Part shown: positions 16,840-55,767 of the stretch, piece by piece
Layout: each line of letters opens with the position of its first letter
Position numbering within the stretch: the stretch's first letter is position 1
Source of the DNA: Hydractinia symbiolongicarpus
Taxonomy: Eukaryota
Length of the DNA: 64,000 nucleotides
Assembly: GCF_029227915.1 (NCBI RefSeq)
Contig: NC_079879.1
Location: 27,443,095 to 27,507,094 of the forward strand
Reading direction: 5' to 3'
Notes under the pieces: model-generated
Told to the model about the DNA's origin: nothing
Databases searched by the model: none
What the model saw: the letters and a program-made list of their open reading frames with translations, nothing else
Position numbers and translations under genes: made by a program

Positions 16840-16990
16840 CTTTGTGTCATTCGCCAAAATAAATTCCGTTAAAATAAACATTTTTTTGTATTCGCCAAAT
16901 TAAATCCTCGCCAAATTTTATAAAATTTATCATTCGCAAAATTAAATCCCCGCCAAGTATTCCATTTTGGTCATTCACCATTAAATACTC
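16840..16990. repeat. Degenerate ~38-bp tandem repeats immediately upstream of the unknown ORF pair
   Basis: The motifs cattcgccaaaataaattcc, gtattcgccaaattaaatcctcgccaaatttt, cattcgcaaaattaaatccccgccaag and cattcaccattaaatactctccaaaattt are imperfect iterations of one unit. Confidence 0.5.
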
Positions 16991-17137
16991 TCCAAAATTT
17001 ATCCACTTAAGATAGTAAATAAAAATATCCTCTCTTTTTCATCTTCTTTTTCTAAAATGACAGATAATAACTTTTCTTTTCTATATATATATATAATATA
17101 TATATTTATAATTACCTATGTTTTTAGATCATGTATA

Positions 17138-17641: not shown

Positions 17642-17696
17642 CAGAATTGGATTTTTATCCTAGTTAAATGTTTTTATTTTGTTGTATTTCTATGCC

Positions 17697-24218: not shown

Positions 24219-25322
24219 CTATTTTTCAGTAGTCAATGTATATTCTTTCAGTTGTTTGAGTTGAAGAATCTCTTTGACAACATCATCATTCATTTTACAC
24301 ACCACGTCCAATACTGTCAACTTTTTACATTCTTTTACAAGATTAAGAACAGCATTGTCTAACTCATGACTTGTTGTCGTATAAATGCAAAGAGATTCTA
24401 ATGTGGTTGAGTAGATTGATGAAACCAAGTTGATGTGGTCAATAACAATTGAGTATAAACATAATTTCAATATAGAAACAGGAGCTTCTGGGACTAAAAC
24501 TCGATATGTTAACTGCAATGGACAAGTGTGGTTGAACCAAACTTCAAGTTTTAAATTAGGAGATTTCTTTTTTATCATCAACCATTCCTCGTCGGTAACA
24601 AATCTGGAATACTTTGCAGCACTTGTAAACAGAAGAGAAATAAATTGAACTTCGGCTCTATCTGCATTTCCAAACGCTCTTAATACGTCGCTACAAAAAC
24701 ATATAGCTTGGACATACAGGTATTGTAGACGACGAGCTTTCTTTACAAATGCGACTAGCATAGCACGTGATATCTGATAGACCAATGTGTTGTTTTGAAT
24801 GTTCAACACCTCAAGATAAGAGGCGTGACATTTGGTTATTGTCTTCAAAAACTCGTCTGTTATCGCGATTGGAAATTTGGATAAATCAATTTTAGTGATG
24901 TAACACAAGGATTTAGTGTTGAAAAAGTCCTGCAGGTTTTCTAGATAACATCTTCCAGAGAAAAAGAAAGGGTTTTGTTCGCAAAATTCTAATTTGAATT
25001 CTTGTAATTCCAACCGTTTTTTTCTTGCTAAATCTTGAACGAAGTTTCCGCTATTTCTGCAGTTATCTGCAGCTCGCTGGTGACATTTGATGTGTAAATG
25101 ACGAAAAAATTCACCGTAGTTTTTTGCGATATCTCGTAAGTTGACGTCACATAAGCCTTTTTGGAAATCTACCTCCACAGTGTACCACAACTGTGGTGAC
25201 TTCATACACTTGTTCCATGTTTTGCACACTTGGGCTGCGTTTAAACGGTCATCGTTCGTCAAATTTTGAAATATATTTACGTAGATTTCAGCAGGTAATG
25301 TCTCCCAATTACTTACTAACAT
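24219..25322 (-). CDS. Intronless F-box protein with C-terminal leucine-rich repeats (FBXL-like), 367 aa
   Basis: ATG at 25322. The N-terminus LPAEIYVNIFQNLTNDDRLNAAQVCKTWNKCMKSPQLW is a canonical F-box. It is followed by LxxLxL-type repeats. Confidence 0.75.
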   Translation of the reverse strand: MLVSNWETLPAEIYVNIFQNLTNDDRLNAAQVCKTWNKCMKSPQLWYTVEVDFQKGLCDVNLRDIAKNYGEFFRHLHIKCHQRAADNCRNSGNFVQDLARKKRLELQEFKLEFCEQNPFFFSGRCYLENLQDFFNTKSLCYITKIDLSKFPIAITDEFLKTITKCHASYLEVLNIQNNTLVYQISRAMLVAFVKKARRLQYLYVQAICFCSDVLRAFGNADRAEVQFISLLFTSAAKYSRFVTDEEWLMIKKKSPNLKLEVWFNHTCPLQLTYRVLVPEAPVSILKLCLYSIVIDHINLVSSIYSTTLESLCIYTTTSHELDNAVLNLVKECKKLTVLDVVCKMNDDVVKEILQLKQLKEYTLTTEK

Positions 25323-37674: not shown

Positions 37675-37731
37675 CAAGTTTAATATGTGAGCAAACTCTA
37701 GAGGTTTTAGTCTAATAATATTTCCAGCCAT
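37675..37731 (-). CDS. MVP: major vault protein, exon 1. The start codon is the reverse complement of 37729–37731.
   Basis: Product MAGNIIRLKPLEFAHILNL, donor gtaaga. Compare human [21 protein letters not shown]. The 28 exons sum to 2550 nt, giving 849 aa, and all phases are consistent. Confidence 0.8.
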
Positions 37732-37903
37732 TTTGCCACAGCAGATCCTTTCGTCAAGGAAAATAACAGTTCAAGCCAAACCCAATGAATAGTGGTGCAA
37801 TAGTAAAAAATGCAAGCGAAAGCTAAATAGTAAAACAAACTCTCCTTCGTAGTGTTTTTATCTAAAAATAATAATAATAACAAAAATAATAAAAATAAAA
37901 CAA

Positions 37904-39327
37904 TAAAACAAACCGAAGTGGCTACAAGTACGTGACCGTATTTTAATTTTTTTTTGCTACAAGTACGTGAATGCGTAAAATGCTGGTAAGCGTACATAAA
38001 ATCACCAGTGACGCCCTTTGTGCGTGGCGTGGAGAATATTGCAGAAGGTGCAAAATAGCATTCCTCGTGAGTTATTTACAAGTGAAAGAATTGCTGTTAA
38101 TTAAAAAAATTAATTTATTAAAAATGAATGTTGGTAGTTTTCTAGTTTTTGACGAATTGCTAAAGGCTATTAACGAGCATGAAAAGTCAACTTTTACACA
38201 ACTGTATGTAAGGAGTTCAAGATCAGTAGAAAGTGGAGCAAAAAGAGCTAGCAAAAAAGTTTTTAAGGAAGAGTTGAAGTACGCAGACTACGCTTGCATT
38301 CATGGGGGGAAAGAATTTAAATCAGCTTCTACTGGAAAGCGCAAACATAATGCGCAAGTTTTTTTTATATATATTGCTATCGGTTTTTTTATATATATTG
38401 CTATCGGTATGCACAAAAAAAAATCCGACCGTATATCATACTTGCGGCGAGTCAAATATTCCGTTTTTTCTTACAGGAATGTTTTGATGAAAACCTTTCG
38501 CTGCAGGCATCACAAATGTTAAAAGTGAAAGCCAAAAAAATAAATTCAAAACCATATTTCCAATCTGTGTGGGAAAAATGTTATCTTGAAAGACCTTCAT
38601 AACATGAGCTCAAAAAACAACGAGAGTGGCTGAAATAATGTACAACAGCTACTCGAAGAAATGAAAAGTGTGCCAGGTAAATTTGAATGAAAGTGAGTGT
38701 AGTTACTATTCTTCCATAATAAAAAATTCCGATGCGAAAATAAATGTAAGATAATAACTAACAAATTTTCTTTAGGGGCAACTGTGGTAGCTGGAGACGT
38801 AATCTTTATTTCAATCGTCACAGCGACGAAACAATTAAAAAAACATCATCTGGCACATTACTTTCATCACAATTAGACACATGCATGCAGTGGCTGTGTT
38901 CTTCATTGCCCACATTAACGCTGAACTATTTGACATAGGTACACATATTTTCGTTGCAGCCTCCATGTTCTTTTTTTTGACTAATATGAGCATCATATCT
39001 TCTTGATAATATTCTTAACATGACCGTACCCTGAAAACATATAATCAGCCTTGTAACATACGTAGTCAAAGTTGTAGAGATGTAAATAAAAGCTCCTAGT
39101 TCAGAGAACCCTAAAAAGAAAATATCTTTTCATCGTCAACTCTCAAACCAACCCGCTGGCCAAGCGACTTCTAGAAAAAAGAAATACGTGAGTGCCGTAC
39201 TTCCAACAAATGAAAGTAAAAATACGTAAATGCCGTACTTCTAGCAAAAAATAGTAAAAATACGTGAATGCCGTACTTCTAGCAAAAAAAAAGTAAAAAA
39301 TACGGTCACGTACTTGTAGCCACTTCG
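37904..39327. mobile_element. Non-autonomous Mutator-like (MULE) element, 1424 bp. It has ~75-bp TIRs with sub-terminal repeats and a perfect 9-bp target-site duplication aaaacaaac.
   Basis: Left terminus cgaagtggctacaagtacgtgaccgtatttt... equals the reverse complement of the right terminus ...aaaatacggtcacgtacttgtagccacttcg. The direct repeat aaaacaaac is present at 37895–37903 and 39328–39336. The sub-terminal motif atacgtgaatgccgtacttctagc is iterated three times. The internal ORF resembles a FAR1/MULE DNA-binding domain. Confidence 0.65.
37971..38522 (+). pseudogene. Remnant N-terminal FAR1/MULE-type transposase DNA-binding domain. It is interrupted by a 24-bp tandem duplication and a frameshift.
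   Basis: The segment MNVGSFLVFDELLKAINEHEKSTFTQLYVRSSRSVESG...KEELKYADYACIHGGKEFKSASTGKRKHNAQ fits the FAR1 DNA-binding pattern F.s.eea..fY..yA..gF.vr..s......f.C..eG......gkRk. The sequence ttttttatatatattgctatcggt occurs twice in tandem at about 38355–38405. Confidence 0.4.
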
Positions 39328-39340
39328 AAAACAAACAAAC

Positions 39341-39511
39341 ATGGCAACCACACAGCTGCTTGCTAAAGTAGGAAAAGATTTAGTTTATCCCTACTTTTCC
39401 AGAAAAAAAGAAGGGGAATGGGATAATAATTTTGTTTTTATACAAGCTGCAGATACACAATTTGGACTTATTGATAATTGGGCTGGAAATCCTATCGAAA
39501 CTAGAAATTAA
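39341..39511 (+). pseudogene. CPPED1: CPPED1-like paralog A, first-exon homology. An in-frame TAA at 39509–39511 precedes any usable GT donor.
   Basis: ATG at 39341. Product MATTQLLAKVGKDLVYPYFSRKKEGEWDNNFVFIQAADTQFGLIDNWAGNPIETRN* aligns to paralog B residues 1–50 (KEGEWKGNFTFIQGADTQFGLIDRWFLKNPIENNVW). Homology then jumps to 42533, and no canonical donor avoids the stop. Confidence 0.5.
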
Positions 39512-42500
39512 AAAAGGTTGCGAAGCATTTCGCAAGTTGCAAGCAAAATTAAACTATCCAATACTTTGTCCCTAGCGCTTCTTGTTTCTTTGGCGCTAAC
39601 ATCTTCCGAAATACATCAAAATTGAATGTCATATAGAAGAACCCTGGGGACGAGGTAGGAAAATGAACGCTCTGCGGAACAATTCGTTGCTCAAAAACAG
39701 TTTTTTTTGCGAATAGACTGCGCGAGTATTTGATGTGCGTGGGATATTCTTTTCAAAATGTGCGAGAAAATTAGATTACGCGAAACTAACAAAAACGAAT
39801 AACGCGTGTTAAAATTTTGTACCGCCTTTTCCCACAGAATGGTAAAAGTAAAGAGCGCAATACAAAATTACACTTTTACCAGTATTCCGAAAGATATGTG
39901 ATACATCGAGTTGTACAACCCGCAGAAGTTGGTCCTAACGTTAACGATTTCGTAAATGACCTCACAACAAAACAGTATTTTTTTCACGTAAAAATACCGG
40001 CAGTAGAAGCCACAGAATCTCCTGGAACGAATTTCGAAAACTCACGGGAAACAATTAAAACAAAAACAAACAAATCAAAACAGTTTTTTAACTTTATCAA
40101 GATTTATTAAATAGCTTCAAATTTGGGCAGAAAAACAATAACGGATTCGCCTTCTTTTCACCACACGCATTAGAAGATTACATCACTCACTCCCATTGTA
40201 CACAATCTAAAAGAAAAAGAAAACATTTTCATATAGTGAAGCTTCCAGTGCCTTTAAGGGATGGCCAAGTCAATGGAATTGAAAGAACTGTTTTTCATCT
40301 TATAAATAATTAAGGCTAATTCGGAAAAGTATAAAAGAAAAAAATTAAACAATTTGGCAACTTTACTAATTTTATACGCAAAGTTCCAACCATACCAACA
40401 GTTTCCAAATCTGACAAAATCATTTTAGAAGTGTTTATTTTTTCAGAATTTGATTGATGCAAGGCCAAGGGAAATTAAATAAGTTTATTGTCCTAGACCC
40501 ATTTAAAAACATATGCTTCTCATCATTCAGTTTTTTTTCAACCAACATTAATGTAATCACCCAGAGGAAATTATAATGTCTCTTGTGTGTGTTTTAGAAG
40601 CTGAGTACACAAATACACAAATATTACAAGTGCTGAACTTTGGCAATCATATTTTGCAATCAGACCCTTTTAAAAACTATGCTGAACCATGTCAATTATT
40701 AAATTCAGCACTAATAGAAAAGCACCTTGGATAGGATTCTTTGTTGGGCGAATAAAATGACTGACAAATGGTTTATCGTGAATGAAATAGTAATTTTTAC
40801 ACAAATAATTTAAAAAATAATGAACTTTGTTATGTGGGTTGTTCTCAAACACACGTGGGCGGTGGACAAAAAACTGTGATGTAATTTCTCTTGGTCTATT
40901 ATTCCTGAGAATATTCTAAAATAAGAGGGTGTCAATAAGCTGCAAACAGCCACATATATAAGGGCGAGTTCGGGCAACTTTTCCAATTAAATTAGTGATT
41001 GTCTTCCAAAACCGCCCGCACTTTCCCGAACTTGCCTGGAGCATTTTTAAAATTCAATTCCTTGTAACATACCTTGTGGACGATATTTGGAAAAAGATGC
41101 TTTAAGAGAAAGAAGTTAATAAAAATTAAAAGTTATTTATCAAGTAAATTTTATCAAAAACCATCGAAAACAGTTCTTTTAAGAACTTTATTACCACATA
41201 GTTTACTTTATGGTCTATGCAGGTTTTTTCGGGTGAATACTTCAATTTTTTTGCAAAACGCTAAACTTGCCCAAAAACGCCTGCACGTTATACGGCGTAT
41301 GCAGCTTATCAGCACCCTTGTTCTAAAATTACAAGCAGTTTCGAAGATGCCCAGGCCGTTTAGAGGACGTGGTGCGGATTGGGCATCCTTGAAGTTCTGT
41401 TTAATGACAGTTTTAATGTTTTAATGTCGTTTTAAACCTTGTTCTCAGGGAGGGTGTACGGAAACTAATTCCTATTGACAATTACATTGCTGTTGGTTTG
41501 ATAGCAAAAGTGGATATTTTTTTAATTACTGTAACAGGTTACTTATATAATAAATAAAAAATGATAAAAAACGGTTGGTCAGCTCACTCTAGTGCCCAGA
41601 GCTATTTGTTTTGTCTGCGCCCTAGCTACAGGTTTTCCTATATCTGGCTATCAGTTAGGTAGTAATACAGCTTCTCCATATGATTTCTACAAATTACTTT
41701 CAATTCTTTTATACAAAACTGAGCTCTAGCTAGCTACCTTTCGTGTCATTAAGCCTTACCTTGATTTGGATAAAACCAATTAAAATTGATAATATTGTAT
41801 TCTTACATCTTCTTAGAAACAATAAAATAAAACACAGCTCGGCGCGTTATAATTGTACAAATTACTTCAATTTTTCTTTAGGAAAGGGTACCTTACACAG
41901 GAGCTTTCCAATCCAACTAAAATCTCCAGAAAAAGCACAGCAACAAAAAAGCTTAAAATACACAAGTAAAGTCGATTAGAAACAGGACTAGCAATAAATT
42001 TTTTCAAAAGAAGAAAACCGTTTTAATACTATTATGTTTCATTAAAATACAACTATGATAGTATTAGAAGCAAAATTGCAAAGTAATTGATTAATTATTT
42101 ATACCATAATTAGCTATAATACAAAGAAATAAGGCATATTTTGGGTCTGTAAAATATACGTGTCTAAAATGCCGACTACCGTTTCTTGTTCACGGCATAT
42201 TCCTCTTTGTGTGTTCAAGTTCGGCGGACGTATAATCCGGACCAAAAGACGGGGGGGGGGGGGGTCAAAATCCGGGGGTGGGGGGGTACGAGCCGTACTT
42301 ATTGCATTTTTTACTAAACTTATACTTTAACCCCTCGGTCCAAACTTATTTGCTTTATTAGAAAAAAAAATACCCTAGCTTTATGTGCAAAAATATCAGT
42401 CCTATTTCTTTACGCTGATTTTATATGATTTTTTTTCTATCGAAATTTTGAGAATCTCAATAATTCTCTTGGTATACCTCGCGTGTAGCAAACGTGCTCC

Positions 42501-42532
42501 ACAATTTCGCTTCGCTCGCTTCGCTCGCAAAG

Positions 42533-42845
42533 CTCAATTGCTTCGCAAAAAATGTATGGGATGAAGAAATTAAACTAACAAAACAAGCTATTAATCTTGT
42601 AAATAAAATGTCGCCAAGACCAAAGTTTTTTGTTGTTTCTGGAGACTTAATTGATGCAATGCCAAGAACAATGCATCGGGCAGCACAAGAGGAAGACTTT
42701 AAGAAGATATTCCAAGGTTTGGATTCGGAAATTCCTTTGATTTGTGTCTGTGGAAACCATGATGTTGGAAATAGTCCCACAAAAGAAAGTTTAGAAAGTT
42801 ATCGCAGGCATTTTGGTGACGACTACTTTAGTTTTTGGGTTGGAG
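42533..42845 (+). CDS. CPPED1: CPPED1-like paralog A, exon 2. It carries metallophosphatase motifs II (GDLID) and III (GNHD).
   Basis: Product LNCFAKNVWDEEIKLTKQAINLVNKMSPRPKFFVVSGDLIDAMPRTMHRAAQEEDFKKIFQGLDSEIPLICVCGNHDVGNSPTKESLESYRRHFGDDYFSFWVGG, donor gtaaga at 42846. The acceptor position after caaag at 42532 is tentative. Confidence 0.55.
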
Positions 42846-42927
42846 GTAAGAATTAGTAAACCTGAATATTACTATAAAGCTAATTTTCTTAAATAATTTT
42901 TACAATATTTACTGTTTAGCTAGCTAT

Positions 42928-43558
42928 ATATGCGGCCCAGTCTGATCGATATCCGAAAATGGATATGTCAATTATATCCAAATGTAGATATATGTCCAGA
43001 TTTTGTGAAAAAAGCATAATTTACCTTCTTTCTTCTGACAAACTCTTCTAATATAATATATATCTTAAGCTGGATAAAAATTGTTACAGAATATATCACT
43101 AAAAAGAATATTTTCCAACGCTTCTTTCCAGTTTTCCGCGTGTTCTTAGCTTGTCTCAATCTAACAGAAATGAATTTTGAAGTTAGTTAACAGCGAGCGT
43201 AATATTTTTCAAGTCTTCATTTTACTTGTATTTTATACAAATTAGATTGGTTCCATGGTTTTAAAGGTATACTGTCTCTACTTTTCTGAAAGCTAAGAGT
43301 TTCTTCTTTAACATAGTGTAGGATTAGTGCAGGGACGCTTTTTTGCTCTAAGGTACGTTTTTAGAAAATCAAATACAACAGATTTGTAATATCAAACAGC
43401 TCAACACCCGCCTATTTCCCCGATTATGTTTTATCCTGTTTTGCCTGTTTTTTCTCCAGTCGAGGGATGGCGGGTTAGCTATTTGGCATTGCTGCGCCCA
43501 TTATATCCGAAAGTGAATATATTCAAAACATATCCATTTTCGGATATCGATTAGACTG
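42928..43558. mobile_element. MITE of about 630 bp with 30-bp TIRs (cagtctgatcgatatccgaaaatggatatg). It is embedded in (AGCT)n microsatellite sequence.
   Basis: Left TIR 42928–42957 equals the reverse complement of 43529–43558, apart from one g-to-a change. The element sits between agctagcta tracts. There is no ORF and the target-site duplication is unresolved. Confidence 0.6.
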
Positions 43559-44379
43559 TAGCTAGCTAGCTAATGATACTTAATAAACATGGTATACATG
43601 CTATAGGTGCTTGCATGTAGTTAACTAGATATAAATAGCTAGCTAACTGCATAGAATTTCTAACATTTCTCAATTTTGCAAAATTCTGCAATTTTTTTTT
43701 ATGTGACAGTGTAGTTGGTTTGTTCAGCAAGAAAAACAGCATGTTGTTTTATGTGTGCGAAACCTAAAGTGTAAAATTAAATGCACAAGAAAAGATGCCC
43801 AATAATAAAGGCATAGCAGAAAAGTGGGATGCTGGATGCTGACTGGGACACGGGATGAAGGATGCCAAAAAATCATCCAAATAAAATAATGCAGCGCCAA
43901 TGTTATTTTTTCTTGCCTTTCTTGCCATATTTCAAGCCTGGGGTCAACCTGTCTCTAACCTTATCAAACGTATCTCTACATTGCAAAATAAGGCTGTTTG
44001 ATTGCTAACTTTTTCTCAACCTACTGCTACAACAGATCCTATCTTTTATCAACTTGGTCTTTTAAAATTTTCCGATATTGTACAAATTTCCAACATTCTC
44101 TTTATTAAAAATATTCTCACTGATTCCACTCCTATAGCTCTAACAGAAACCTACGGTATCAAGATCCATCAACATCATTACAATACCAGGAACAAAACTG
44201 TTGAAATGCTTGACCACTTTCTCTCAAACACTACTTACTTTGGTACCAACTCAATTAGATCTCAATGCACTACTTCCTGGAATAATTTACAAAAAGTTAA
44301 CTCTTTATCCTTTATCACATTGTCAAATTCTGTTATAAAATATAAACCCAACAGATTTTTTCTGGACACTTATGAAATG

Positions 44380-44530
44380 ACCCTTCAGTCGTGTGTGTGT
44401 GTGCGTGTTTGTACGTGCTGTATATGTATGTGTCTGTCAACATGGATTGATATCTTAAAGTGTGTGTGTGTTTGTTTGTGTGTGTTTTCTTCGTCCTATT
44501 ATTATTATTATTTTTACTCTTTGGTTTGTA
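44380..44530. repeat. (TG)n and GT-rich microsatellite, plus (ATT)n
   Basis: Runs gtgtgtgtgtgtgcgtgtttgtacgtg...gtgtgtgtgtgtttgtttgtgtgtg and attattattattattttt. This is a possible LINE 3' tail following ORF 44002–44400. Confidence 0.8.
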
Positions 44531-44739
44531 TGGGGAAAATGGAATAGTATTTTCCCTCCCTATACACTTTACCCTTGTTACTCCCCCATTTGGTGGCCTT
44601 CACGGTACTATTAGCTTTGCTATGGTGTTGTTCCCCAGCCATTGAACATAACTATGTATTTATATAATGGATTATACCTACTGTAATTTCAACAAATAAA
44701 TAAATTGAATTGAATTGAAATAGTACGATGGACACGAAG

Positions 44740-45000
44740 GGTCAAAATTTCCACTAATTGTTTTCAACTTTTCCGATATTTGTTTCAACTTTTCCGATAT
44801 TTTTTCTAAGATTTTTTTATTAAGAATTTTTTTTCTGAGAACTTTTTTTGAGAATTTTTTTTCTAGGAATTTTTTTCTAAGAACTTTTTTTTAAGAATTT
44901 TTTCCTAAGAACTTTTTTCTAATAACATTTTTCGGAGAATTTTTTTCTGATAAGTTTTTTGAAAGAACTTTTTTCTGAGAATTTCTTTTCTAATAAGTTT
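44740..45000. repeat. Minisatellite array A with units of about 13–23 bp (ttttccgatatt..ttcaactt and agaattttttttct). It is the inverted partner of array B.
   Basis: The array is the reverse complement of the ggaaaagttgaaaaaaatatc units at 48600–48880. Confidence 0.7.
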
Positions 45001-45039
45001 TTATGGGTTTTACCACTTGCAACTTGTATCACGAAGAAG

Positions 45040-45990
45040 AACATGGATGCTTTAATTAAGCAGTACGTCAGTGATGGTTTTACATATCTGGAGATAATTG
45101 AACTCCTAAAACATCGACATGAATAATAAATAAGTTTATCTATACGGAAATGAAGATTGAGACGTTTAGGAATAAAAAAAGAGCACTTCAAAATGTTCGT
45201 AGTCCGATACAAGATGTTAAGATTGCTGTCCCGCAAGAATTATCATGTAGTGGATCTGATATAGGTTATCGATGAGTGTATCGTTCTCTAGTTTCTCAAG
45301 GCCTCATATGTCGACAAGTAGATGTTCGAAGAATTATTAAAAGTATTGATCCCGACGGTGTAGCTAGGAGACAGCGTAGAAAATTGCATAGGAGAAAGTA
45401 TATATCCCAAGGACCGAGCTTTGTTTGGCACATTGATGAACACGATAAACTTAAACATTTGGATTCAGCATACATGGATGTCTTGATGGATTCTCAAGAA
45501 AGGTAATGTGGCTCGAAGTTGGACCTACAAATAAAATGCCGGAAATTGTGGCAAAGTATTACCTTGACACAGTTGGAAAATTGGTGGTATTCCAATGCAG
45601 ATCAAAGCTGATGATGGTACAGAGCATGCTTTGATTGAACCTCGACGCTGGCGATGGAGAGGTGATGGAATCATTTAGTATCATAACATCACCTCAAAGC
45701 CAAAGGATAAAAGCTTACTGGTCTATCTTACAGAGGGACAGAATAGGATGGTGGCGAAGATTCTTAAGAGACATTTCTTACATGGATTTGTTTTCAAATG
45801 ATGACCCGGTTTTAGTTGATTGTATTAGATTTTGTTTCTTGCAATTAGTTCGTAATGATCTTAATTCAATCAGGACTTAGTGGAATTCGCACATAATCTC
45901 AAAAAGTTGCAACGCTGGACCACGGGGAAGACCAGACAGTATGTTTTACTTGTCCCACCTTTTTGAAGCTGAAAACATGATCATTAAAGT
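45040..45990 (+). pseudogene. Frameshifted integrase-like (DDE/rve-core) gene fragments of an unclassified animal TE family
   Basis: Fragments MDALIKQYVSDGFTYLEIIELLKHRHE*, ...RRQRRKLHRRKYISQGPSFVWHIDEHDKL..., ...WLEVGPTNKMPEIVAKYYLDTVGKL / GGIPMQIKADDGTEHALIEP, and ...AYWSILQRDRIGWWRRFLRDISYMDLFSNDDPVLVDCIRFCFLQLVRNDLNSIRT.WNSH. These span three frames and contain stops. Confidence 0.55.
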
Positions 45991-46593
45991 AGGTGCAGCG
46001 AAAATAAATGAATTTTATTTGGATGTCACAGCTAATTTTTTAGATTATTCTTAAGAATTTCAAGATTTTGCTACCACAGTTATGCATGAAGAAGGCAAAG
46101 GCTTGCCTCAAAATCCAACAGAAGCTTTAGACTTATATTTATTTCTACTTCAGAAAATTAATGAATGTTCTTAGATTTTTTTTGAATACAAAATAGCATA
46201 TTGAATCAGTTGAAAAGTATATTATCCTAACTCACCATCAATAATATACAATAACAACAGAGTATCTAACATAATAACAACTTTTAAACCCTGTGAAATT
46301 AACATAAAGTACAAATATGATGGCAATCATTCAAAAAAGTCACATTTCAAAAAACATAAATAAAAAAAGTCAAAAGATCATTGAGACTGTCTGATGATTA
46401 TGAGAATGTCTATAATTGAGTATCTTCCTTTATTATACAGTGCACCTTAACAAATTCTTCCCTCAATTCGCAGAAGTTATTATAAGTTGCAGGTAGTTCC
46501 GAAGTAGGACTGCATGTATGTGCAATTGGGCGTCTCCCAAAGTCAGATGTTGGTAAATAGAAAGTCACTTTAATTTCAATAACACTAATCAGG

Positions 46594-47315
46594 TCAGAAC
46601 CTGTTGCATTGCAACAATTTCTTTAAGAGTATTACTTGAAGGCCTTTAACAAACCGTTTAAAATATGCAAAAGCTTCCTTTTCTGCTTCAGTGACAGGAC
46701 TTGCTGAAAATAAACTAAGCACTTTTTTGGTGGTTGGTTCAATATCTGCATATAAATGTTCAATAGCCCTTGTATCTGGAAATTTATTTTTCAAGACAAT
46801 AAATACTTCCCTCCAGCACGAGGCCATGATATGCGGCTTTTGAATTAATTCCTGTCGTGCAATTTCACATATCACTGCATGGACATTCTCCTTACGTACT
46901 AAAGTACGACATTTAAAAACCTCAAGAAAACCTTTTAAATCTTCATTTTCCTCAAAATGTCCATTAAAACTTGGAGATAATATGTTATTAATTAATTTAA
47001 CCTCATCATCAAAAGCATGTTTCTTGAAGGAATCAATTAGTTCATCATCATTCACACACCCAAACATACAATATAGGTTATGAAACATCGACTAAGAACT
47101 GTAGGAAAATAGCCAACGTCAATATAATCCTTTGCTAGGATCATTCCAATTGCCAGCCACTCTGCAAGGTACATGTCATGCCTAACAAATGGCACGCGTT
47201 CTGCCTCACAAATCAAAAAACTGTTCGAAACTTCCTGCCAAAATGCAGTATATACGTCTCGCTTAATGCCGCTTCCAACTCCAATTTCTTCCTTTCCACG
47301 GGGATCAATAAACAC
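46594..47315 (-). CDS. HECT-domain protein, G2E3-like, no catalytic Cys motif seen. The C-terminal part is encoded in two frame-shifted segments.
   Basis: Segment 47052–47315 encodes DPRGKEEIGVGSGIKRDVYTAFWQEVSNSFLICEAERVPFVRHDMYLAEWLAIGMILAKDYIDVGYFPTVLS, which matches the HECT N-lobe pattern. Segment 46594–47088 encodes ...NDDELIDSFKKHAFDDEVKLINNILSPSF...IMASCWREVFIVLKNKFPDTRAIEHLYADIEP.... The two are out of frame relative to each other, which implies an intron or a frameshift. Confidence 0.45.
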
Positions 47316-47339
47316 ATAATTTCGTCTGCAATATTTACC

Positions 47340-48300
47340 TACAAAAAGAAATCAAGCCATATAATTTAGTTTTAAATAGAAAGCATAATAGAAAATATTT
47401 TTGCTACTAGATTTAGGTTATTTCTGTATTTCTAACATTTTCTTACAAATATGTAACAACATGTAAATGTTTATATTATACTAGCTTAACTAGCTTTGTG
47501 TATTTTGTGTATACAGTGTTGCCTGAGGATGAGTAAAACAACAGTTAAACATTGGGGAATATAAAATTGGATATAAGAACCTTAAATTCATATATACCTT
47601 GTTCTTCATATAATGATTTAGTAAATCTGTTGAAACTTTTGTGCGATGAATGTGGAAGGAATATTTCTTTATTTTTGGAGTAATTGGTTCAAATGGTTCT
47701 ACTCTTAATAATCTTATCTCCGAAGTTGCGGGATGTTCAAAATTACAAGAATTTGTATTTGCCTCATTTTTTTCTGGTGTGGGTGGAGCAGCAATTTCAC
47801 CATTAAAAAGTTCATACGTGGTCAAGTCAGTGATATTACTTGGTAGTTCTTGTTGATTTTTCTTTGGTCTGCAGACAATGATTCGTTAAATGCAGTATTT
47901 TGTACACAAACAAGGCAGCAATCTATGTAAGTGCAACCACATACAACACATTTTTCTCTTTCTTGTGACAGAAAGAGGTGCATCAGATGAAACATCATTA
48001 TTATTTTGTTGTGCTACATCATCACCGTCATCATCACATTTTCCTGATAAATCATTACTGACAAAGAAGTCATCATTGAAATTTGTTAATTCTGATTTTA
48101 GCACAAAGAAGGTTTTACTAAGTTAAAATCCTTTTTTCCTGACATACTCAAAGACATTCAATTCTTCATCTAACTCTGTCAATGTTGCATCACAAATTGA
48201 TAATGTACATTCTAACGTGTTTTCTTCAAACGAATTCTTAAAACAATTGTCAAAAAATAATTCGGTCGACTTAGATTTGATGTCTTTAAATGAGCTGTAT
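47340..48300 (-). pseudogene. Putative upstream N-terminal part of the HECT/G2E3-like gene, with frame breaks
   Basis: Minus-strand ORFs 47490–47825 and 47886–48104 continue the same gene, including the segment KRKMCCMWLHLHRLLPCLC. Open reading frames run to about 48300 with at least one frame break. Confidence 0.3.
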
Positions 48301-48599
48301 TCGTCGATTTCTAGAGATCTACAGCCACCACCTTAATTTACTCTTATCAGTTGGTAAGAGCCTGTACGTCAGTACCACTTTATTTGCACTCGTTTTAAGT
48401 TTTATTTTGTTGACACAGAGTTTGATTTACTCCCAATTTTGCTTAGTAGTCCACAAGTATTGTTTCATAAGAATTTCATTTATTTTTGCCTTTTGCTTTC
48501 TGTTCCTTGTCCTCCATTTTTGTCATATACTTTGCTACTGCACGCTTTACAACGTCCTCCATCTTGTTTACAGATTGATAGCCTGAATAATCCAACTTT

Positions 48600-48880
48600 A
48601 ATCAAACACGGAAAAAATAAAAAAATTGGCAGAGATAAAAAAAAGTCAAAGAAGTTGAAACAAAGAATTAGGAAAAAGTTGAAAAAATATCAGAAAAGTT
48701 GACAAAAAAATCCGCAAAAGTTGGAAAAATTATCGGAAAAGTTGAAAGATTTTCGGAAAAGTTGAAAATATATCGGAAAAGTTGAAAAAAATATCGGAAA
48801 AGTTGAAAAAAATATCGGAAAAGTTGAAAAAAAATTCGCCAAAGTTGAAAAAAATTCTTGGAAATCTTGATCCATCTTAG
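48600..48880. repeat. Minisatellite array B, about 11 copies of a ~23-bp unit (ggaaaagttgaaaaaaatatc)
   Basis: A clear tandem array, inverted relative to 44740–45000. Together the two arrays bracket a 3.6-kb interior. Confidence 0.8.
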
Positions 48881-48949
48881 TATAGGAATATGTTTTATGA
48901 AAGAGGAAACGTATATAACCATAAGCTAGAAGATATAATTAAGCTGCCT

Positions 48950-50480
48950 TAATTTAAAAAGTTACATCCTAAACGAAAGAATGAAACGAACCGAGTAATA
49001 ACAGAGGAAGAAAGAATTACACCGAAATTGAAAACAAGAATAAAAATAAATAGATAAAAAGAGGAATAGCGAGTCATTGTATCATCAATTAAAACCAACT
49101 GATAGTCAACCTTCACGTTTATGTGGCTTAGCTAAAGTTCTTAAAACGAACACACCAGTAAGACCAGTTTTGTCTATGCCAGGGTCAGCATATTATGAAA
49201 TCGTTAACCAGGTTTCGAAATGGCTTTCTGTTGTTGAAGAATGTAATGTAAACGCTTAACAAAATCGATTTCTGACTCTTTGCATCAGATAGAATTGAAT
49301 GAGGAAGACGAATTAATCGGTTTTGACGTGACTTCGCTGTGTACGAACGTACCAGTTAATAAATGATTGTTCAGAATTGCTCTATTCTGGAAAATATGAT
49401 AAACCAACAGTAGATAAGCAGAATTTTATTTTTTTTTGCTTATTATCTGCAGCTGCAATGTTATTATGTTAACTAATGATGGATATTACAAGCAAATAGA
49501 TGGATTAGCTATGGGTAGCCCACCAGCTCCCATGATATCTAATGGTTAGCTTAGCAAATATGATCATGAGATTAAAGGCAACGCATAACTATTTTCAAGG
49601 TATATGGATGATATTCTTCGGAATAGTAAAAAGCATGAAATACATCGGGAGCTTGAGGAGATTAATGATTTACATCCTGCATTTAATTTACAGTAGAGAG
49701 GGAATTCAATGGTAGTATTCCATTCCTTGACATGCTCATTAAACGAATTGGGCGCAAATTGTCCTCTACATGGTACATCAAAGCCACCGATACAGGTCTA
49801 ACTATGAATTTTCATTCCCTCACTATTGAAGTATAAACGATCTGTAGTGGCACATCGAATAGTGCGTGCTTGTATTCCTTGGAAAGTTGTTCATGAAAGC
49901 CTAGCAAAAGCGAAACAAATTCTCAAAAATAATCAATACCCTGTTTCATTCTATGAACCCATTATTAAGAAAGTGTTGGAATCAGTTGTTATACCTAAAG
50001 AACTGAAAGGTGAATTTAAATCAGATGAACAGGTACCGTGTAAAATTATGTTCATTCAACAGAAGACGCATATCAGATAAGTTTGAACAGTCACTTAAAA
50101 GAATGGACACTTCTTGTAAAGTTGTCCTCGCGCTAAGAAAAGTTAAAACAATATTAACGCCGTTAAAGCCAACGATCGAAACAGCTCTTAAAAGTGGTTT
50201 AGTTTACCAAATTACACGGTGTAAATCGTGCTATGTCAGATAAACAACCCGCCATTTACTAACCTGCAAAAAAGAGCACACAAGGTCGACAAGTCCCGTT
50301 GGTAGTCACTTCAAATCATGCAACATTGCGCTCACAATGGATGACGTTATTATACTTGTTTCATCAAGCAGATCGTCCCATCATTTAATGGTTTTGGAAG
50401 CGTGATATATTCGTCAAATTAAACCAACTTTGAACACAAAGGACGAATATAAAAGTCATACATTAGTGGAATATAATAAT
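48950..50480 (+). mobile_element. Degenerate Penelope-like element with RT and GIY-YIG endonuclease remnants
   Basis: RT fragments: LKPTDSQPSRLCGLAKVLKTNTPVRPVLSMPGSAYYEIVNQVSKWL, ELIGFDVTSLCTNVPVN, QIDGLAMGSPPAPMISN, RYMDDIL (the YxDD motif), and HPAFNL..REGNSMV.FLDMLIKRIG..L.TWYIKATDTGL. A linker follows: KRSVVAHRIVRACI. The GIY-YIG motif then reads GLVYQITRCKSCYVR.TTRHLLTCKKEHT...ILVSSSRSSHHLMVLEA.YIRQIKPTLN. Several stops and frameshifts are present. Confidence 0.65.
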
Positions 50481-52316
50481 GAACGACGTTTTCAGGGATG
50501 TTGGCAACAGTTTATTATAATTTTTGTTTAAAATATGATTTAGATGTGTTGTAACATTCGTTAGAATTTGTTTTTAAGCTGTGCATAATTTTTTAATAAA
50601 CCTATTTTTAAACTGTTATTTATGTGTTTCATAGAGAGTGAATCTGATGGTGAGTTACAAAAACTCGAAATATTTTATTCAAATAAAATTGCGTTGTTGG
50701 TCATTAAAATTTCCCGAATAAAAGCAGAAAAATTCAAAATTTAAAATGTGTAAAATTTTATTCAGCACACAAAAATCCAAAATCCAGTTACAAAATCGTG
50801 TCCAGTAGAATAATCGAAATATGTTTAAAATCCAGAATCGAGTTTCGCAATACAAAATAATATTCACAATGATAAGAATAACAGATTGCAATCATACAAC
50901 GTCTCAAACGCACTACTACACTGGCAAACTATTCGCGCATGATTCGCTCATGTTTTCAGTCGATTAATTTTCCTGATCATTTCGGTAAGTAGACCGTAAT
51001 TTGTAGCGCGGATATTTCTGTCTACTCTTTATGCTATAAGCCATGAAAACCTGGTTTCTTCTCATGTTTTTTATTAAAAAGAAAAACAGCAATTCGTAGT
51101 CACGAAAATTTTCGTTTTTCTCACTCAATAAAATAAACACTCACACATAGACTGGTTTCTGCAACATCAACTATTTCAATCTCTTTTCAGAATGTATAGC
51201 TCGAGAGCGCTACTTTTTCAGATCGGAGGCATTTACATTTATTGCTTGATATCTCAACCTCGCCAAATGATAGATAAAAGTTCAATGTCAAACAAATCGT
51301 TTCGTATCACATTAAGTTCACCAAACGAAAAAAAAAAAAAAAAAAAAATTAAGTCTTCATTTCTAGCTGTTTTATTCTTTTTAGAAAATACCGGCGTAGT
51401 TCAGTAACGGCATGGTCAGTATTTTATTTCGATGAGTTTTTTGCATCCCGTATCTCGCATCCCGCATCCTGCATCCCACTTTTCCGATATGCCGCACAAA
51501 GAAAGATGCACAAAAATAAAACTTGCGTGAAAGCCTAATCAACCGATCAGCCCAAAGTAGGTGTGGTCACGTCTTACTATCTTCAATAATCTAAGAATTA
51601 ATTAGACTTGTTCAGGTGAGTGAGCCCATTCGCGCTCAAAACAAAGGATTTCCCGATATTCTATTGACCACGTATAAGCCAAAAACAATAGAATTAACAC
51701 TGGGTCTCAAACGATTTTTATGGATACAAGAGCTTGCTGTAAAGAGGCCTTGTTAAACCGATTTAATAAATTATCAGTTGCAGATTGAGATCTTTCAACT
51801 CATATATATTCCTGTAAACTCCTAACGACACCTTTGTGCGAATAAAGACTTTTTGCCTGCCACGCAATTGCTGAAGCCAAATGAGCTTTCCATAGAGAAT
51901 GTGAACATGTCAAGATATCATGAAGAGTATAAGTCCACACTGCTAAAAATGATAATTTGTAACTTTGTAAGATATTTAAAGTATGAAGTTATGCTTAGTA
52001 CTTTATGAAATCATTAATGATGGCTTAAGATTAGATGGAAATCTTTGGAGTTACAAAATATGTAATAACTAGGATGGTTAAAGAATCAATTACTGAAGAT
52101 TTACCTAAGAAGAATAGAATATTTTAAAGTTGTATGATGTATGAATTTTAAAAGAATATACATGATGAATTTAACTTTACTCTTAACTAACTTGAAACAC
52201 TGTTGTTTTAAAAGTATTTCAAAAAAAACAAAAGTTTTAAAAACCAATTCATAAAATTTCTTTCCGCGAAATTTTAAGCTGAACTTCAAACTCACATCAA
52301 GTCGTAATAATAAATT

Positions 52317-52924
52317 CCGGCAACATTTCATCCAACATTTTTTTTCATTGTTGGATGAAATGTTGATGAAAAAATGTATGCTGGATGAAGCAAAATTTTA
52401 GGTTTGTGGGACTGCTTTTAAAAACATTCAAACGATAAAGAGCTCATTCATTCCTGAAAAACAAAATGGCGGACTGAAGGAGTTCTGCAGTGCTGCTTAT
52501 GTTGCTGAACGAACTCGTCGATTCGCACGATGAAAAATCAACCCGCGGAAAAACAAGAGAGTGGATAAAGAGGAGGGAACAAAATGGATATTTTAGTAAT
52601 ATCATTAAAGAATTGAAGATCGAAGACAGATTCGGATTTAGGGAAATGTTTGGGATGGATGTGGGGGATTTTGATTTCCTCCTTAATGAAATATCCCATC
52701 TGAGTTTTATTTCTTGGATAAAAAGTACCACAAAACCAATCCAACATAAGAATGTTGGCTAAATTGTTTGACGGCGATCAAACTTCATCCAACATCGTCC
52801 AACACGATTTCTTTCTTCTTTTTTGAAAATTTCATATTTTTTCAAAATTTTGAAGTGACTCAAAGCAGTCCAACATTTTATCCAACGTCATAAAAAATGC
52901 ATGTTGGATTAAATGTTGGTCTGG
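52317..52924. mobile_element. Harbinger-derived non-autonomous element of about 610 bp with palindromic TIRs (ccRgcaacatttMatccaacat)
   Basis: Left ccggcaacatttcatccaacat matches the reverse complement of right ccagaccaacatttaatccaacatg. The internal ORF 52490–52762, ...REWIKRREQNGYFSNIIKELKIEDRFGFREMFGMDVGDFDFLLNEISHLSF, resembles the N-terminus of HARBI1/PIF transposases. Confidence 0.5.
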
Positions 52925-53469
52925 TTTGCCCCCGCCTCAAGGTATAGTAGAAAGTAACAGAAAAGTTTTCACCTTTGACTGCAACATGTTTTCATTGTTT
53001 GTATAATGGCATTACCTTTTGGTTCGAATTAGCGCCAAACATTTACTGAAGTATCGGGAATGGTTCAACCTTTATATATCCAACCAAGCATCCATATTCT
53101 GTTGCACCGTCCACACCCCTGCTCTGCAAATAACGGGTACCCACTAAAATACAAAATGTAAATTAAAGTGTTGAACAGTTCTTTATTGCTATCACTTGTT
53201 TAGTAAGGATTTTTGCTGTTAAAGAACTGCACTAATTTGTTTATATAAAATATTCCAGGTAAAAAAACCTAAAACAACCCTCTATCTTTTTGTTATGTAA
53301 TTTGGCCATCTATTTATAAAAATAAGTTCATAAGCGCCCGCTTCTTCTAAGCGCCAACAAGTATTTGTTTAAACTGTTGCGGTACTGTTACAGCTAGTTT
53401 TATTTTATTTTATTTTAGGCGTATCTATATAATAATACGGAGATTTTATTTTAGGCGTATTATTTATAG

Positions 53470-53918
53470 TACTAAACTCTCAACTATACGCAGATCACAT
53501 AAATGTCCCAGATGAGTATGAAAAACAAGATAAATGGATAGATACGCAGTTAAATATTGTTAGATCAAAAGAATGTAAACATTGTATAGTCTTTCAACAC
53601 ATTCCTTGGTTCCTTCAAACGGCTGATGAGGAAGATGAGTATTTTAACATTAAAAAAGAACCGCGTTTCAGAATGTTAAACAAGTTTCGAGAAGCTGGAG
53701 TAAAGCATATCTTCTGTGGGCATTATCATCGTAATGCAGGAGGTTTATATGGTGATCTCGAGGTGATTGTAACGTCTGCTATCGGCTGCCAGTTGGGAGA
53801 AGATAAATCTGGAATGCGAATTGTTCGTGTCTCGGAAAATAAAATTGAACATAAATATTATGGATTACAGGAATGTCCTACCTCATTGTCACTGAATGTG
53901 TCAGTTGACCTTCCATGA
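53470..53918 (+). CDS. CPPED1: CPPED1-like paralog A, terminal exon. It carries the GHYHRNAGG metallophosphatase motif.
   Basis: Acceptor tatttatag. Product VLNSQLYADHINVPDEYEKQDKWIDTQLNIVRSKECKHCIVFQHIPWFLQTADEEDEYFNIKKEPRFRMLNKFREAGVKHIFCGHYHRNAGGLYGDLEVIVTSAIGCQLGEDKSGMRIVRVSENKIEHKYYGLQECPTSLSLNVSVDLP*. Phase matches exon 2. Confidence 0.6.
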
Positions 53919-55313
53919 TTTCATGTTAATTTGTTTTCATATTATATTCTGTGTATGCATATTTTATTTATGTATTTTATATGTTATGTATGCATACTGT
54001 ATTTACATTTTTATTGTAAATATTTTTATACACAAACATAGTATACCCCTTAAGAAGCACCTTTATTCAATAAGTGCCCACTCTTGAGTAAGTGTTGTCT
54101 TGAACATATTGTTAGGAAGGTTCTTTGGTATCAAAACAAAAATAAAATGACGTAATGAGGAAGTGTATTTTCTTAGCAATTTTCTGTGAATAAAACATTT
54201 ACAAGTTTTCTAACAATTCAAACATATTTGCATCACACCATGTTCTTTATCGCTGCTTTCGTCTTTATCAGCAACCATTCGCAATTATTTTTTTACATAT
54301 ATTCATCCCACCTTGCCTTACTGTTGATTATTCGCACCTGCAACAGGTAAATTTAAGAATGCTATCAAGTTCCAACTTCATAGCAGTTATAATGGCCAGT
54401 CATAATGGGGTCATAGAAAGCATCTCTAAGTTTCTAACCCTGGCAGGTTTCAAGGATGGACCTAAAAGTGATTTCCATTTGATCACTTGCAAGGGGTTGT
54501 GCAAAACTAGTTCGATTTGCAAGATTTCCATAAAGACGTTGTACCGCAAGTCTTCCAATGTGCTTGATTCATTTTTTTTGTAATTGAAATATACAAGCGA
54601 AAAATATAGAGAAAACTTTTGACATATTTCAGTTTTTTGCATTTAAACAGGTAATATGCAGAAAGCTACACGCATATTTGAGTGATATACACCTGATGGT
54701 GCGTCTAATGTAAAGCTATATTTGGGTTAAGGTTGAAAAATTGCAACTTCGACTACAGGATGAGACATGGTTTTACAGGAAATGAACAAAAGTTACGTAC
54801 GTATGGCTAGGTATAATAATTAAGTTTTAAACAAAAGAAATTAATTCCTAAACGCTTTGATTGGCATAGAATTGATCACAAGATAAAGCAAACCAAGATG
54901 ATCTTTTGGGTGATATTTTTGAATGATGAAGTTGTAAACATTAAATGTTACATTTGTGCCAGCGTTTATTGCACAGAACTTGCTGTCAGATGCAACTATG
55001 AGATGTCATTTTAAAAATCCTTTTAAGAGAAGTGTTTTTATAACAATATAACTATTTAAAGTGATTCTATGAAATGATTATGACGATGTAATGTAATTTA
55101 ATATTAAGTTTGTTTGTTGAAAGCGTGGGATAAAATAATAAAGTTGTAAAATGTATAAGCTTGTTGAACAACGCATTCAAAGAAAACATCAGGCGTAGAG
55201 AACAGCACGAGCTTAAAACGTGTTTTCATATCACTTCGTTGTATTAACATATTTCAGTGGATGCTAACGATTTTACACACATCACGTTGTACTTTTCTGT
55301 AGTGTAAACAAAT

Positions 55314-55767
55314 ATGGCGGCAGGAGATTTCCGTCGTTCAATTAACGGTGTATATCCTGGATTTACCCACGAAAAAGAAGGAGAGTGGAAAGGAAATTTT
55401 ACCTTTATACAAGGTGCTGACACTCAATTCGGTTTGATTGACCGCTGGTTTCTTAAAAATCCTATTGAAAATAACGTGTGGGACCAAGAGATGGAACTGA
55501 CTAAGCAAGCCATAAAACATGCCAATGAAATGATTCCTAAACCGAAATTTTTCATCCTGTGTGGAGATTTGATCGATGCTATGCCTCATACGAAACACCG
55601 TGGTGTACAAGAAGAAGATTTCAAGAAGTTATACAGTGAACTTGATTCTGAAATACCTTTAGTGTGTGTTTGTGGTAACCACGATGTTGGCGATATACCC
55701 ACGAAGGAGAGCTTAGAAAGTTATCGGGCGGAGTTTGGAGATGACTATTTTACGTTCTGTGTGGGAG
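55314..55767 (+). CDS. CPPED1: CPPED1-like serine/threonine phosphatase paralog B, exon 1 of 2
   Basis: ATG at 55314. Product MAAGDFRRSINGVYPGFTHEKEGEWKGNFTFIQGADTQFGLIDRW...KPKFFILCGDLIDAMPHTKHRGVQEEDFKK...IPLVCVCGNHDVGDIPTKESLESYRAEFGDDYFTFCVGG, donor gtgagt. Compare human CPPED1 [21 protein letters not shown]...KPKFFVLCGDLIHAMP...IPLVLVSGNHDIGN...WGDDYFSFWVGG. Confidence 0.85.

What the first reader, a model, noticed from the sequence alone, without database searches (positions are those of the whole stretch)
37675..39511. Mutator-like transposon inserted into a compact head-to-head promoter between MVP and CPPED1 paralog A
The MVP start codon (minus strand, 37731) and the CPPED1-A ATG (plus strand, 39341) face away from each other. 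Excluding the 1424-bp element and its target-site duplication, only about 185 bp separate them, which suggests a shared bidirectional promoter. The MULE-like element (37904–39327) has a perfect 9-bp TSD, so it is a discrete and probably recent insertion. It lands 14 bp upstream of the CPPED1-A ATG and 173 bp upstream of the MVP ATG. This could have rewired or silenced one or both promoters, and it coincides with the apparent decay of CPPED1-A.
Basis: partly seen in the sequence, partly recalled or inferred. Interest (0 to 1): 0.6.

Follow-up and report, generated by a model that had tools for sequence, protein, structure and literature searches.

The report
Defective Mutator-like transposon between two genes
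A 1.4-kb broken copy of a Mutator-like "jumping gene" sits in the very short gap between the start codons of the major vault protein gene and a CPPED1 gene copy. This is an ordinary kind of transposon insertion, and nothing shows that it caused the damage to the CPPED1 copy, which is broken by a separate insertion.

Summary
Its outermost 31 bp are perfect terminal inverted repeats, and a perfect 9-bp target-site duplication (AAAACAAAC) lies directly against both ends.

It is a non-autonomous, internally deleted Mutator-like element (MULE):
- It keeps a stop-ridden remnant of about the first 200 residues of a MULE transposase and lacks the catalytic core.
- Two copies of the same family, with near-identical termini, occur in another eukaryote's contigs. 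One of them (4.3 kb) still carries the MULE transposase domain.

Without the element, the MVP and CPPED1-A start codons are 186 bp apart, head to head. The insertion lies 4 bp upstream of the CPPED1-A ATG (13 bp counting the duplicated 9-mer) and 182 bp upstream of the MVP ATG.

The suggested link to CPPED1-A decay is not supported. CPPED1-A is broken by an independent 3,045-bp insertion in its first coding exon and is otherwise intact. Known MULE preference for gene 5' ends is enough to explain the location.

Recency is plausible but could not be tested: no other assembly or orthologous site was found. The element is a new member of a known kind and of low interest.

The parts
37675..37731 (-). 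MVP exon 1; start codon at 37731-37729, GT donor after 37675
   Evidence: Translation MAGNIIRLKPLEFAHILNL. In-frame stop 13 codons upstream. Vault-repeat exons follow downstream.
37732..37904 (.). Retained 5' intergenic DNA on the MVP side, ending in an A-rich (TAA)n / TAAAAATAA tract at 37863-37906
   Evidence: Sequence; tandem repeat rows.
37905..37913 (.). Left copy of the 9-bp target-site duplication, AAAACAAAC
37914..39327 (+). Non-autonomous MULE, 1,414 bp; the transposase remnant reads on the + strand
37914..37955 (+). Left terminal inverted repeat (31 nt perfect at 37914-37944), followed by a second copy of the 12-mer GCTACAAGTACG at 37956
38124..38357 (+). Remnant of transposase exon 1: a ZSWIM3_N / FAR1-type DNA-binding domain, 78 codons, with a 2-codon deletion relative to relatives
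   Evidence: Pfam PF21599 E=5e-5, below the curated cut-off. 288 relatives found. The long relatives are MULE transposases. Alignment.
38360..38408 (+). Perfect 24-bp tandem duplication inside the former transposase intron
38486..38682 (+). Remnant of the next transposase exon (about residues 150-199), containing stop codons. Homology to transposase ends here, just before the catalytic RNaseH-like domain.
   Evidence: tblastn with P0014 and P0037; tblastx to L003-L005; blastn to L006 7203-7401.
38683..39181 (.). Interior of about 500 bp with no match to transposase, to the related elements or to the rest of the window. It lies at the deletion junction; its origin is unknown.
39182..39304 (-). 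Subterminal 38-bp tandem repeats (3.2 copies) carrying inward-facing copies of the 12-mer GCTASAAGTACG; candidate transposase-binding sites
   Evidence: (D1).
39286..39327 (-). Right terminal inverted repeat (31 nt perfect at 39297-39327)
39328..39336 (.). Right copy of the 9-bp target-site duplication, AAAACAAAC
39341..39499 (+). CPPED1-A first coding exon, part a (MATTQ...NPIE)
39500..42544 (-). Separate 3,045-bp insertion splitting the CPPED1-A coding exon (boundaries within a few bases, in an A/T run). The reading frame runs into TAA at 39509-39511.
42545..42849 (+). CPPED1-A first coding exon, part b (KNVWD...FWVGG), followed by a GTAAGA donor

Best explanation
The feature is a non-autonomous, internally deleted Mutator-like element (MULE).

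What the anatomy shows: it keeps both terminal inverted repeats, arrays of a subterminal 12-mer repeat, and a pseudogenised 5' part of the transposase gene (exon 1, a short intron and the next exon, about residues 6-199). It has lost the DDE/RNaseH-like catalytic core and everything after it.

How it most likely got there (inferred from the family): a family transposase encoded elsewhere in the genome bound the terminal and subterminal repeats, excised the element and integrated it by a 9-bp staggered cut. The target was an A-rich tract 4 bp upstream of the CPPED1-A start codon, inside the 186-bp spacer between the divergent MVP and CPPED1-A start codons. The position most likely reflects the general MULE preference for open chromatin at gene 5' ends.

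Likely consequence (inferred): the CPPED1-A start codon is now separated from all former upstream DNA by 1.4 kb, so that gene's former promoter or 5' leader is disrupted. MVP keeps 182 bp of its original upstream DNA.

CPPED1-A is independently inactivated by a 3,045-bp insertion in its first coding exon. No causal or temporal link between the two insertions is shown.
For: - Repeats and duplication.
- Boundary fixed by comparing three family copies.
- The 78-residue N-terminal remnant has 288 relatives. The full-length ones have the architecture ZSWIM3_N/FAR1 + MULE (PF10551) / ZSWIM1-3 RNaseH-like + SWIM or PHD. One is annotated as a MULE transposase domain protein of Patella caerulea.
- tblastn shows homology only to residues ~6-199, with stops, and none to the catalytic domain.
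- Same family elsewhere: L002 holds a 716-bp copy and L006 a 4.28-kb copy, with termini 87-98% identical to the window's. Inside L006's repeats is a MULE domain (PF10551, E=1.2e-19, above the curated cut-off) and a PHD finger.
- The subterminal 12-mer occurs 5 times in 64 kb, only in the element's ends, facing inward; 0.17 expected.
- Literature: MULE duplications are 8-11 bp and MULEs tend to insert in or near genes (PMC6446971). Maize Mu makes 9-bp duplications and prefers 5' UTRs and transcription start sites (PMC2774946).
- Separate lesion of CPPED1-A.
Against: - No empty site, second assembly or other copy from the same genome was available, so mobility and age are inferred.
- The window holds no autonomous copy.
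- The Pfam hit of the remnant itself is below the curated cut-off (24.2 vs 27.8 bits). Superfamily assignment rests on homologues and on the L006 family member.
- The 5'-end preference is documented for plant Mu, not for this animal-type family.
- There is no transcript evidence for either gene's start site, so 'promoter' and '5' leader' are positional inferences.
- About 500 bp of the interior (38683-39181) is unexplained.
Confidence: 0.8

Rival explanations
1. The MULE insertion came first and silenced or rewired the CPPED1-A (and perhaps MVP) promoter. Selection on CPPED1-A then relaxed, which allowed the later 3-kb exon insertion.
For: - The element lies 13 nt from the CPPED1-A ATG and cuts it off from all upstream DNA.
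- CPPED1-A is indeed disrupted.
- A redundant tandem paralog B exists.
Against: - The order of the two insertions cannot be determined.
- Apart from the 3-kb insertion, the CPPED1-A coding sequence shows no stops or frameshifts, and its splice sites and C-terminal exon are intact. There is no sign of prolonged relaxed selection.
- The exon insertion alone is enough to inactivate the gene.
- In maize, Mu insertions in 5' regions often leave expression near wild type through an outward-reading promoter (bioRxiv 10.1101/2023.06.05.543741).
Confidence: 0.12
2. Exaptation. The insertion is old and fixed, and the element's ends now supply the promoter or 5' leader for CPPED1-A and/or regulatory input to MVP.
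For: - Outward-reading promoters are documented in maize Mu ends.
- No ATG occurs on the + strand in the last ~70 nt of the element before the CPPED1-A ATG (read directly), so a start site there would give a clean leader.
Against: - CPPED1-A is broken downstream, so a preserved promoter would serve no intact protein.
- The unmutated duplication and tips argue against great age.
- There is no transcript data.
Confidence: 0.06
3. It belongs to another cut-and-paste superfamily (hAT, P, Merlin or similar), or is a chance inverted repeat and not a transposon at all.
For: - Repeats of 30-40 bp with subterminal repeats also occur in hAT, P and CACTA elements.
- The Pfam hit of the remnant is below the cut-off.
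Against: - The 9-bp duplication fits MULE rather than the 8 bp of hAT and P (my knowledge; MULE range from PMC6446971).
- The coding remnant is homologous to the N-termini of MULE transposases.
- A family member with the same termini carries PF10551.
- Chance is excluded, and by the copies in L002 and L006.
Confidence: 0.02

Closest known systems
Non-autonomous Mu elements of maize (Mu1-type deletion derivatives of MuDR) and MULEs in general
   Same: - Cut-and-paste element with terminal inverted repeats, a 9-bp target-site duplication and repeated transposase-binding-type motifs in the ends.
- Internal deletion of the transposase gene, so dependence on a transposase supplied in trans.
- Insertion next to a gene's start (PMC2774946, PMC6446971).
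   Different: - The repeats are short (31-42 bp plus subterminal repeats to ~130 bp) against ~215 bp in Mu.
- The host is an unidentified AT-rich (33% GC) eukaryote, apparently an animal.
- Mobility and 5' preference are not shown for this family.
Animal MULE transposases of the ZSWIM1/ZSWIM3-related type (Pfam ZSWIM3_N + ZSWIM1-3_RNaseH-like/MULE + SWIM/PHD), e.g. Patella caerulea KAK6169865.1
   Same: - The element's N-terminal remnant aligns at 45-50% identity to residues ~6-199 of these proteins.
- Relatives in ENA contigs (P0155, P0006) reach 70-77% identity.
   Different: - The window copy has no catalytic domain and is not a gene.
- ZSWIM1 and ZSWIM3 themselves are regarded as domesticated host genes without repeats (my knowledge). 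This copy is a bona fide element with repeats and a target-site duplication.
Family copies in ENA sample ERZ25072740 (L006 ~5697-9976, 4.28 kb; L002 9815-10530, 716 bp)
   Same: - Termini nearly identical; L006's right tip matches the window's tips 31/31.
- Same ~35-38-bp subterminal repeats.
- Same exon 1 and exon 2 order, and A/T-rich targets.
   Different: - Coding parts are only ~73% identical in DNA.
- Their left tips read GGCAG instead of CGAAG.
- Their flanking 9-mers are degenerate: 7/9 in L002, and 5/9 in L006 by my reading of the sequence.
- They come from a different organism of unknown identity.

Membership tests
Mutator-like elements (MULE / MuDR superfamily) | Terminal inverted repeats at both ends | tested here: met
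   42-nt arms at 90%, outer 31 nt perfect. Conserved in three family copies.
Mutator-like elements (MULE / MuDR superfamily) | Target-site duplication of 8-11 bp, typically 9 (PMC6446971; PMC2774946) | tested here: met
   Perfect 9-bp AAAACAAAC directly against both ends. Chance 3e-5 to 3e-3.
Mutator-like elements (MULE / MuDR superfamily) | Transposase of the Mutator DDE type (Pfam MULE PF10551 / Transposase_mut PF00872), encoded by the element or by an autonomous family member | tested here: met
   - Absent from the window copy.
- The copy's N-terminal remnant is homologous to MULE transposase N-termini.
- Family member L006, with the same termini, encodes PF10551 (E=1.2e-19) and PF00872.
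Mutator-like elements (MULE / MuDR superfamily) | Evidence of transposition: several copies at unrelated sites, or an empty site | tested here: inconclusive
   - Two further copies lie at unrelated sites in another organism's contigs.
- No second copy in the window.
- The window's genome is absent from the searchable collections, so no empty site could be examined.
Non-autonomous deletion derivative | Retains the ends but lacks an intact transposase ORF | tested here: met
   Only residues ~6-199 are recognisable, with stop codons. There is no catalytic domain.
Pack-MULE (gene-capturing MULE) | Interior carries a fragment of a host gene | tested here: not met
   The interior at 38683-39181 matches nothing in the window, in the related loci or in Pfam. 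Capture from a gene outside the window cannot be excluded.
Bidirectional (head-to-head) promoter | Divergent genes with starts less than 1 kb apart | tested here: met
   186 bp from ATG to ATG in the reconstructed empty site; 1,609 bp in the present sequence.
Bidirectional (head-to-head) promoter | Transcription start sites of both genes mapped within the shared spacer; co-regulation | not testable with these tools
   No transcript data. An untranslated upstream exon for either gene cannot be excluded.
Bidirectional (head-to-head) promoter | Arrangement conserved in relatives | tested here: inconclusive
   L001, the nearest MVP locus found (about 69% protein identity in exon 3), shows neither MVP exons 1-2 nor CPPED1 upstream. 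It is a 3x-coverage, repeat-filled contig.

The most novel reading that the evidence does not exclude
The insertion is a young, possibly still polymorphic product of a currently active animal MULE family, and the element's end now acts as an outward-reading minimal promoter at a formerly shared MVP/CPPED1 bidirectional promoter. That would be a natural animal counterpart of maize Mu-suppressible alleles.
Probability: 0.1. Interest if true: 0.4.

Novelty: new member of a known kind. Interest (0 to 1): 0.2.

Why it matters
This is mainly an annotation result.
- It defines a MULE family by its termini, subterminal binding-type repeats, 9-bp duplication and a 4.3-kb partner that carries the transposase domain. 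The family can be used to mask and count copies in this genome and its relatives.
- It corrects the reading of CPPED1-A: the gene is disrupted by two separate transposon insertions and has not decayed gradually.

If the insertion proved polymorphic, the locus would be a convenient natural test of how a MULE at position -5 of a start codon affects two divergently transcribed genes. Nothing here challenges current understanding.

Tried and rejected
- Exact-protein look-ups of three window ORFs (the element ORF, the CPPED1-A exon ORF and the 367-aa F-box gene) found nothing. The window's genome is not in the collection, so neither the organism nor other assemblies could be found.
- Scans of JGI metagenome contigs for the 21-nt terminus and for the start of CPPED1-A found nothing.
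- A single-sequence word-index protein search with the remnant found nothing. It worked only with an alignment of relatives taken from the exhaustive search.
- Orthologous-site test in the nearest MVP contig (L001): exons 3-4 were found, but exons 1-2 and CPPED1 were not. The upstream region is repeat-filled, so the test was uninformative.
- Paralog B as a paralogous empty site: only ~8 nt upstream of the ATG look alike (AAACAAAC vs AAACAAAT). That is too short to use.
- Clean duplications for L005 and L006: not found.
- Pack-MULE idea: no captured fragment detected.
- A literature look-up of the ENA sample accessions returned nothing relevant.
- The promoter/terminator scanner was not used, because it models bacterial sigma-70 signals.

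Full report
**1. The observation**

The region contains inverted repeats at 37914-37955 and 39286-39327, 42 nt long and 90% complementary. The outermost 31 nt, CGAAGTGGCTACAAGTACGTGACCGTATTTT, are identical on both ends. A 25-nt core of this sequence occurs only at these two places in the 64-kb window, with none in 100 shuffles.

Directly outside the two ends lies the same 9-mer, AAAACAAAC, at 37905-37913 and 39328-39336. No other register from 1 to 15 nt matches. At the same offset, only one of 62,568 position pairs in the window is identical, and it is this pair. Two random 9-mers of the window are identical with probability 3.4e-5. When they are drawn only from the local A-rich flanks the probability is 2.7e-3.

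The element proper is 37914-39327, 1,414 bp.

- MVP exon 1 starts at 37731 on the minus strand (MAGNIIRLKPLEFAHILNL, then a GT donor). An in-frame stop lies 13 codons upstream, and Vault-repeat exons follow down to about 26.6 kb.
- CPPED1-A starts at 39341.
- Without the element and one copy of the duplication, the two start codons are 186 bp apart.

**2. What the element is**

The longest internal ORF (37971-38522) gives a sub-threshold Pfam match to ZSWIM3_N (PF21599, E=5e-5). An exhaustive HMMER search with the 78-residue core (38124-38357) found 288 relatives, 24 of them at E<1e-10.

The full-length relatives share one architecture: ZSWIM3_N/FAR1 DNA-binding domain, then the MULE / ZSWIM1-3 RNaseH-like catalytic domain, then a SWIM or PHD finger. 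One of them is a Patella caerulea protein that UniRef names a MULE transposase domain-containing protein.

tblastn of these proteins against the window matches only 38124-38678. That corresponds to residues ~6-199, is interrupted by stop codons, and ends just before the catalytic domain. The second block (38486-38682) corresponds to the next transposase exon in related genomic copies.

The element is therefore a pseudogenised deletion derivative. It keeps the 5' exon-intron structure of the transposase gene and has lost the catalytic part. The ~500 bp at 38683-39181 match nothing available. I found no sign of a captured host fragment.

**3. Relatives elsewhere**

Context look-ups of the closest protein relatives retrieved two copies of the same family from ENA sample ERZ25072740.
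- L002 holds a 716-bp non-autonomous copy at 9815-10530.
- L006 holds a 4.28-kb copy at about 5697-9976.
- Their termini are 87-98% identical to the window's. L006's right tip is identical over all 31 nt, although the coding parts share only ~73% DNA identity.

An alignment of the six termini is conserved from the first element base inward, while the 9 flanking bases differ between copies. This confirms the boundary independently and shows that AAAACAAAC is host DNA.

Within its repeats, L006 encodes ZSWIM3_N, a MULE domain (PF10551, E=1.2e-19; PF00872, E=1e-6) and a PHD finger.

More distant autonomous relatives (L003-L005, ~60% identity in the N-terminal domain) share several features:
- the tip motif GTGGCTA;
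- the ~35-bp subterminal tandem repeats;
- PHD and Peptidase_C48 coding capacity.

In the window, the 12-mer GCTASAAGTACG occurs five times. All five are in the element's ends and face inward, against 0.17 expected. The right end also holds 3.2 tandem 38-bp units. I take these to be transposase-binding sites; this is an inference.

**4. Mechanism**

Shown:
- repeats and a 9-bp duplication;
- MULE-type coding remnant;
- loss of the catalytic core;
- family members elsewhere, including one that carries the MULE domain.

Inferred:
- Mobilisation in trans by a family transposase, and integration by a 9-bp staggered cut in an A-rich tract. All three copies sit in A/T-rich 9-mers.
- Choice of site by the MULE preference for gene 5' ends and open chromatin. 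[quoted passage not shown]

Positional consequences:
- CPPED1-A's ATG keeps only 13 nt of non-element upstream sequence, 9 of them the duplication.
- MVP keeps 182 nt of its original upstream sequence.

Whether either promoter is impaired cannot be decided from sequence. In maize, Mu ends often provide an outward-reading promoter that preserves expression (bioRxiv 10.1101/2023.06.05.543741).

**5. The 'decay' of CPPED1-A**

Paralog B (ATG at 55314) reads ...NPIENNVWDQE... within one exon. In paralog A the same exon stops after ...NPIE at 39499, and the frame runs into TAA at 39509-39511. The exon resumes at 42545.

Removing 39500-42544 (3,045 bp) restores a 155-codon open exon that is colinear with B at 70% DNA identity. 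The GTAAGA donor, the acceptor and the C-terminal exon (from 53445 to its stop) are intact.

The only lesions in CPPED1-A are therefore two independent transposon insertions, with no stops or frameshifts. This argues against long relaxed selection and gives no support to the idea that the MULE insertion triggered decay. The order of the two events is unknown.

**6. Age**

Cut-and-paste elements cannot be dated from their two ends. Even so, the 18 nt of duplication and the 62 nt of tips are unmutated, and the tips equal a terminus found in another genome. With P(no change) = exp(-80d), d is below about 0.04 at the 5% level. This is my inference and assumes neutrality. 'Recent' is plausible but unproven.

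**7. What could not be done**

- The window's organism is not in the searchable collections, so no empty site, other strain or genome-wide copy count was available.
- The nearest MVP locus (L001, ~69% protein identity) was uninformative.
- The organism remains unidentified. It is an AT-rich (33% GC) eukaryote whose MULE relatives occur in molluscs, sponges and fishes.

**8. Verdict**

The element is a new member of a known kind, a non-autonomous animal MULE. The functional and causal part is either untested (promoter rewiring) or unsupported (link to decay). Interest is low.

Noticed in passing
window 39500-42544: A 3,045-bp insertion splits the first coding exon of CPPED1-A. Read on the minus strand, it ends in CTAG. 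A 7-bp-stem hairpin (TTGCGAA-ATGC-TTCGCAA) lies about 17 nt before that end. The 5' tip TTGCGAAGCA is the reverse complement of the subterminal 3' sequence, and the target is a T-run. From memory, these features resemble Helitron2/Helentron-type termini; this was not tested. There is no other copy in the window.
   Followed up: partly
window 39341-57239: CPPED1 is tandemly duplicated. Paralog A is 39341-39499 + 42545-42849 + a C-terminal exon from 53445. Paralog B is 55314-55777 + a C-terminal exon from about 56772. The single intron is about 1 kb in B and about 10.6 kb in A, where it is filled with transposon-like ORFs (for example 44002-46051, 46597-47351 on the minus strand, and 49050-50402).
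   Followed up: partly
window 38360-38408: A perfect 24-bp tandem duplication (TTTTTTTATATATATTGCTATCGG, two copies) lies inside the element's former transposase intron.
   Followed up: no
window 53410-53460: The 15-mer TTATTTTAGGCGTAT, which contains the acceptor AG of the CPPED1-A C-terminal exon, occurs twice, 36 bp apart. This may be a small duplication or a footprint at the acceptor.
   Followed up: no
L005 ~9844-17735; L003 10001-11807: More distant autonomous relatives of the family carry, besides the MULE transposase with a PHD finger, an ORF with a Peptidase_C48 (ULP-type protease) domain. From memory, this combination is best known from plant MULEs.
   Followed up: no
proteins P0044 (610 aa) and P0057 (772 aa): In these two proteins the MULE-type ZSWIM3_N DNA-binding domain is joined to a C-terminal THAP4-like heme-binding beta-barrel, with no transposase core. 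They may be domesticated fusions.
   Followed up: no
window 14123-14146 and 20071-20094: Identical short tblastn hits about 5.9 kb apart suggest a duplicated segment or a repeat family in the upstream part of the window.
   Followed up: no
window 24219-25322 (minus strand): An intronless 367-aa ORF with an N-terminal F-box domain (PF12937, E=2.5e-12) lies downstream of the MVP gene's 3' end.
   Followed up: partly
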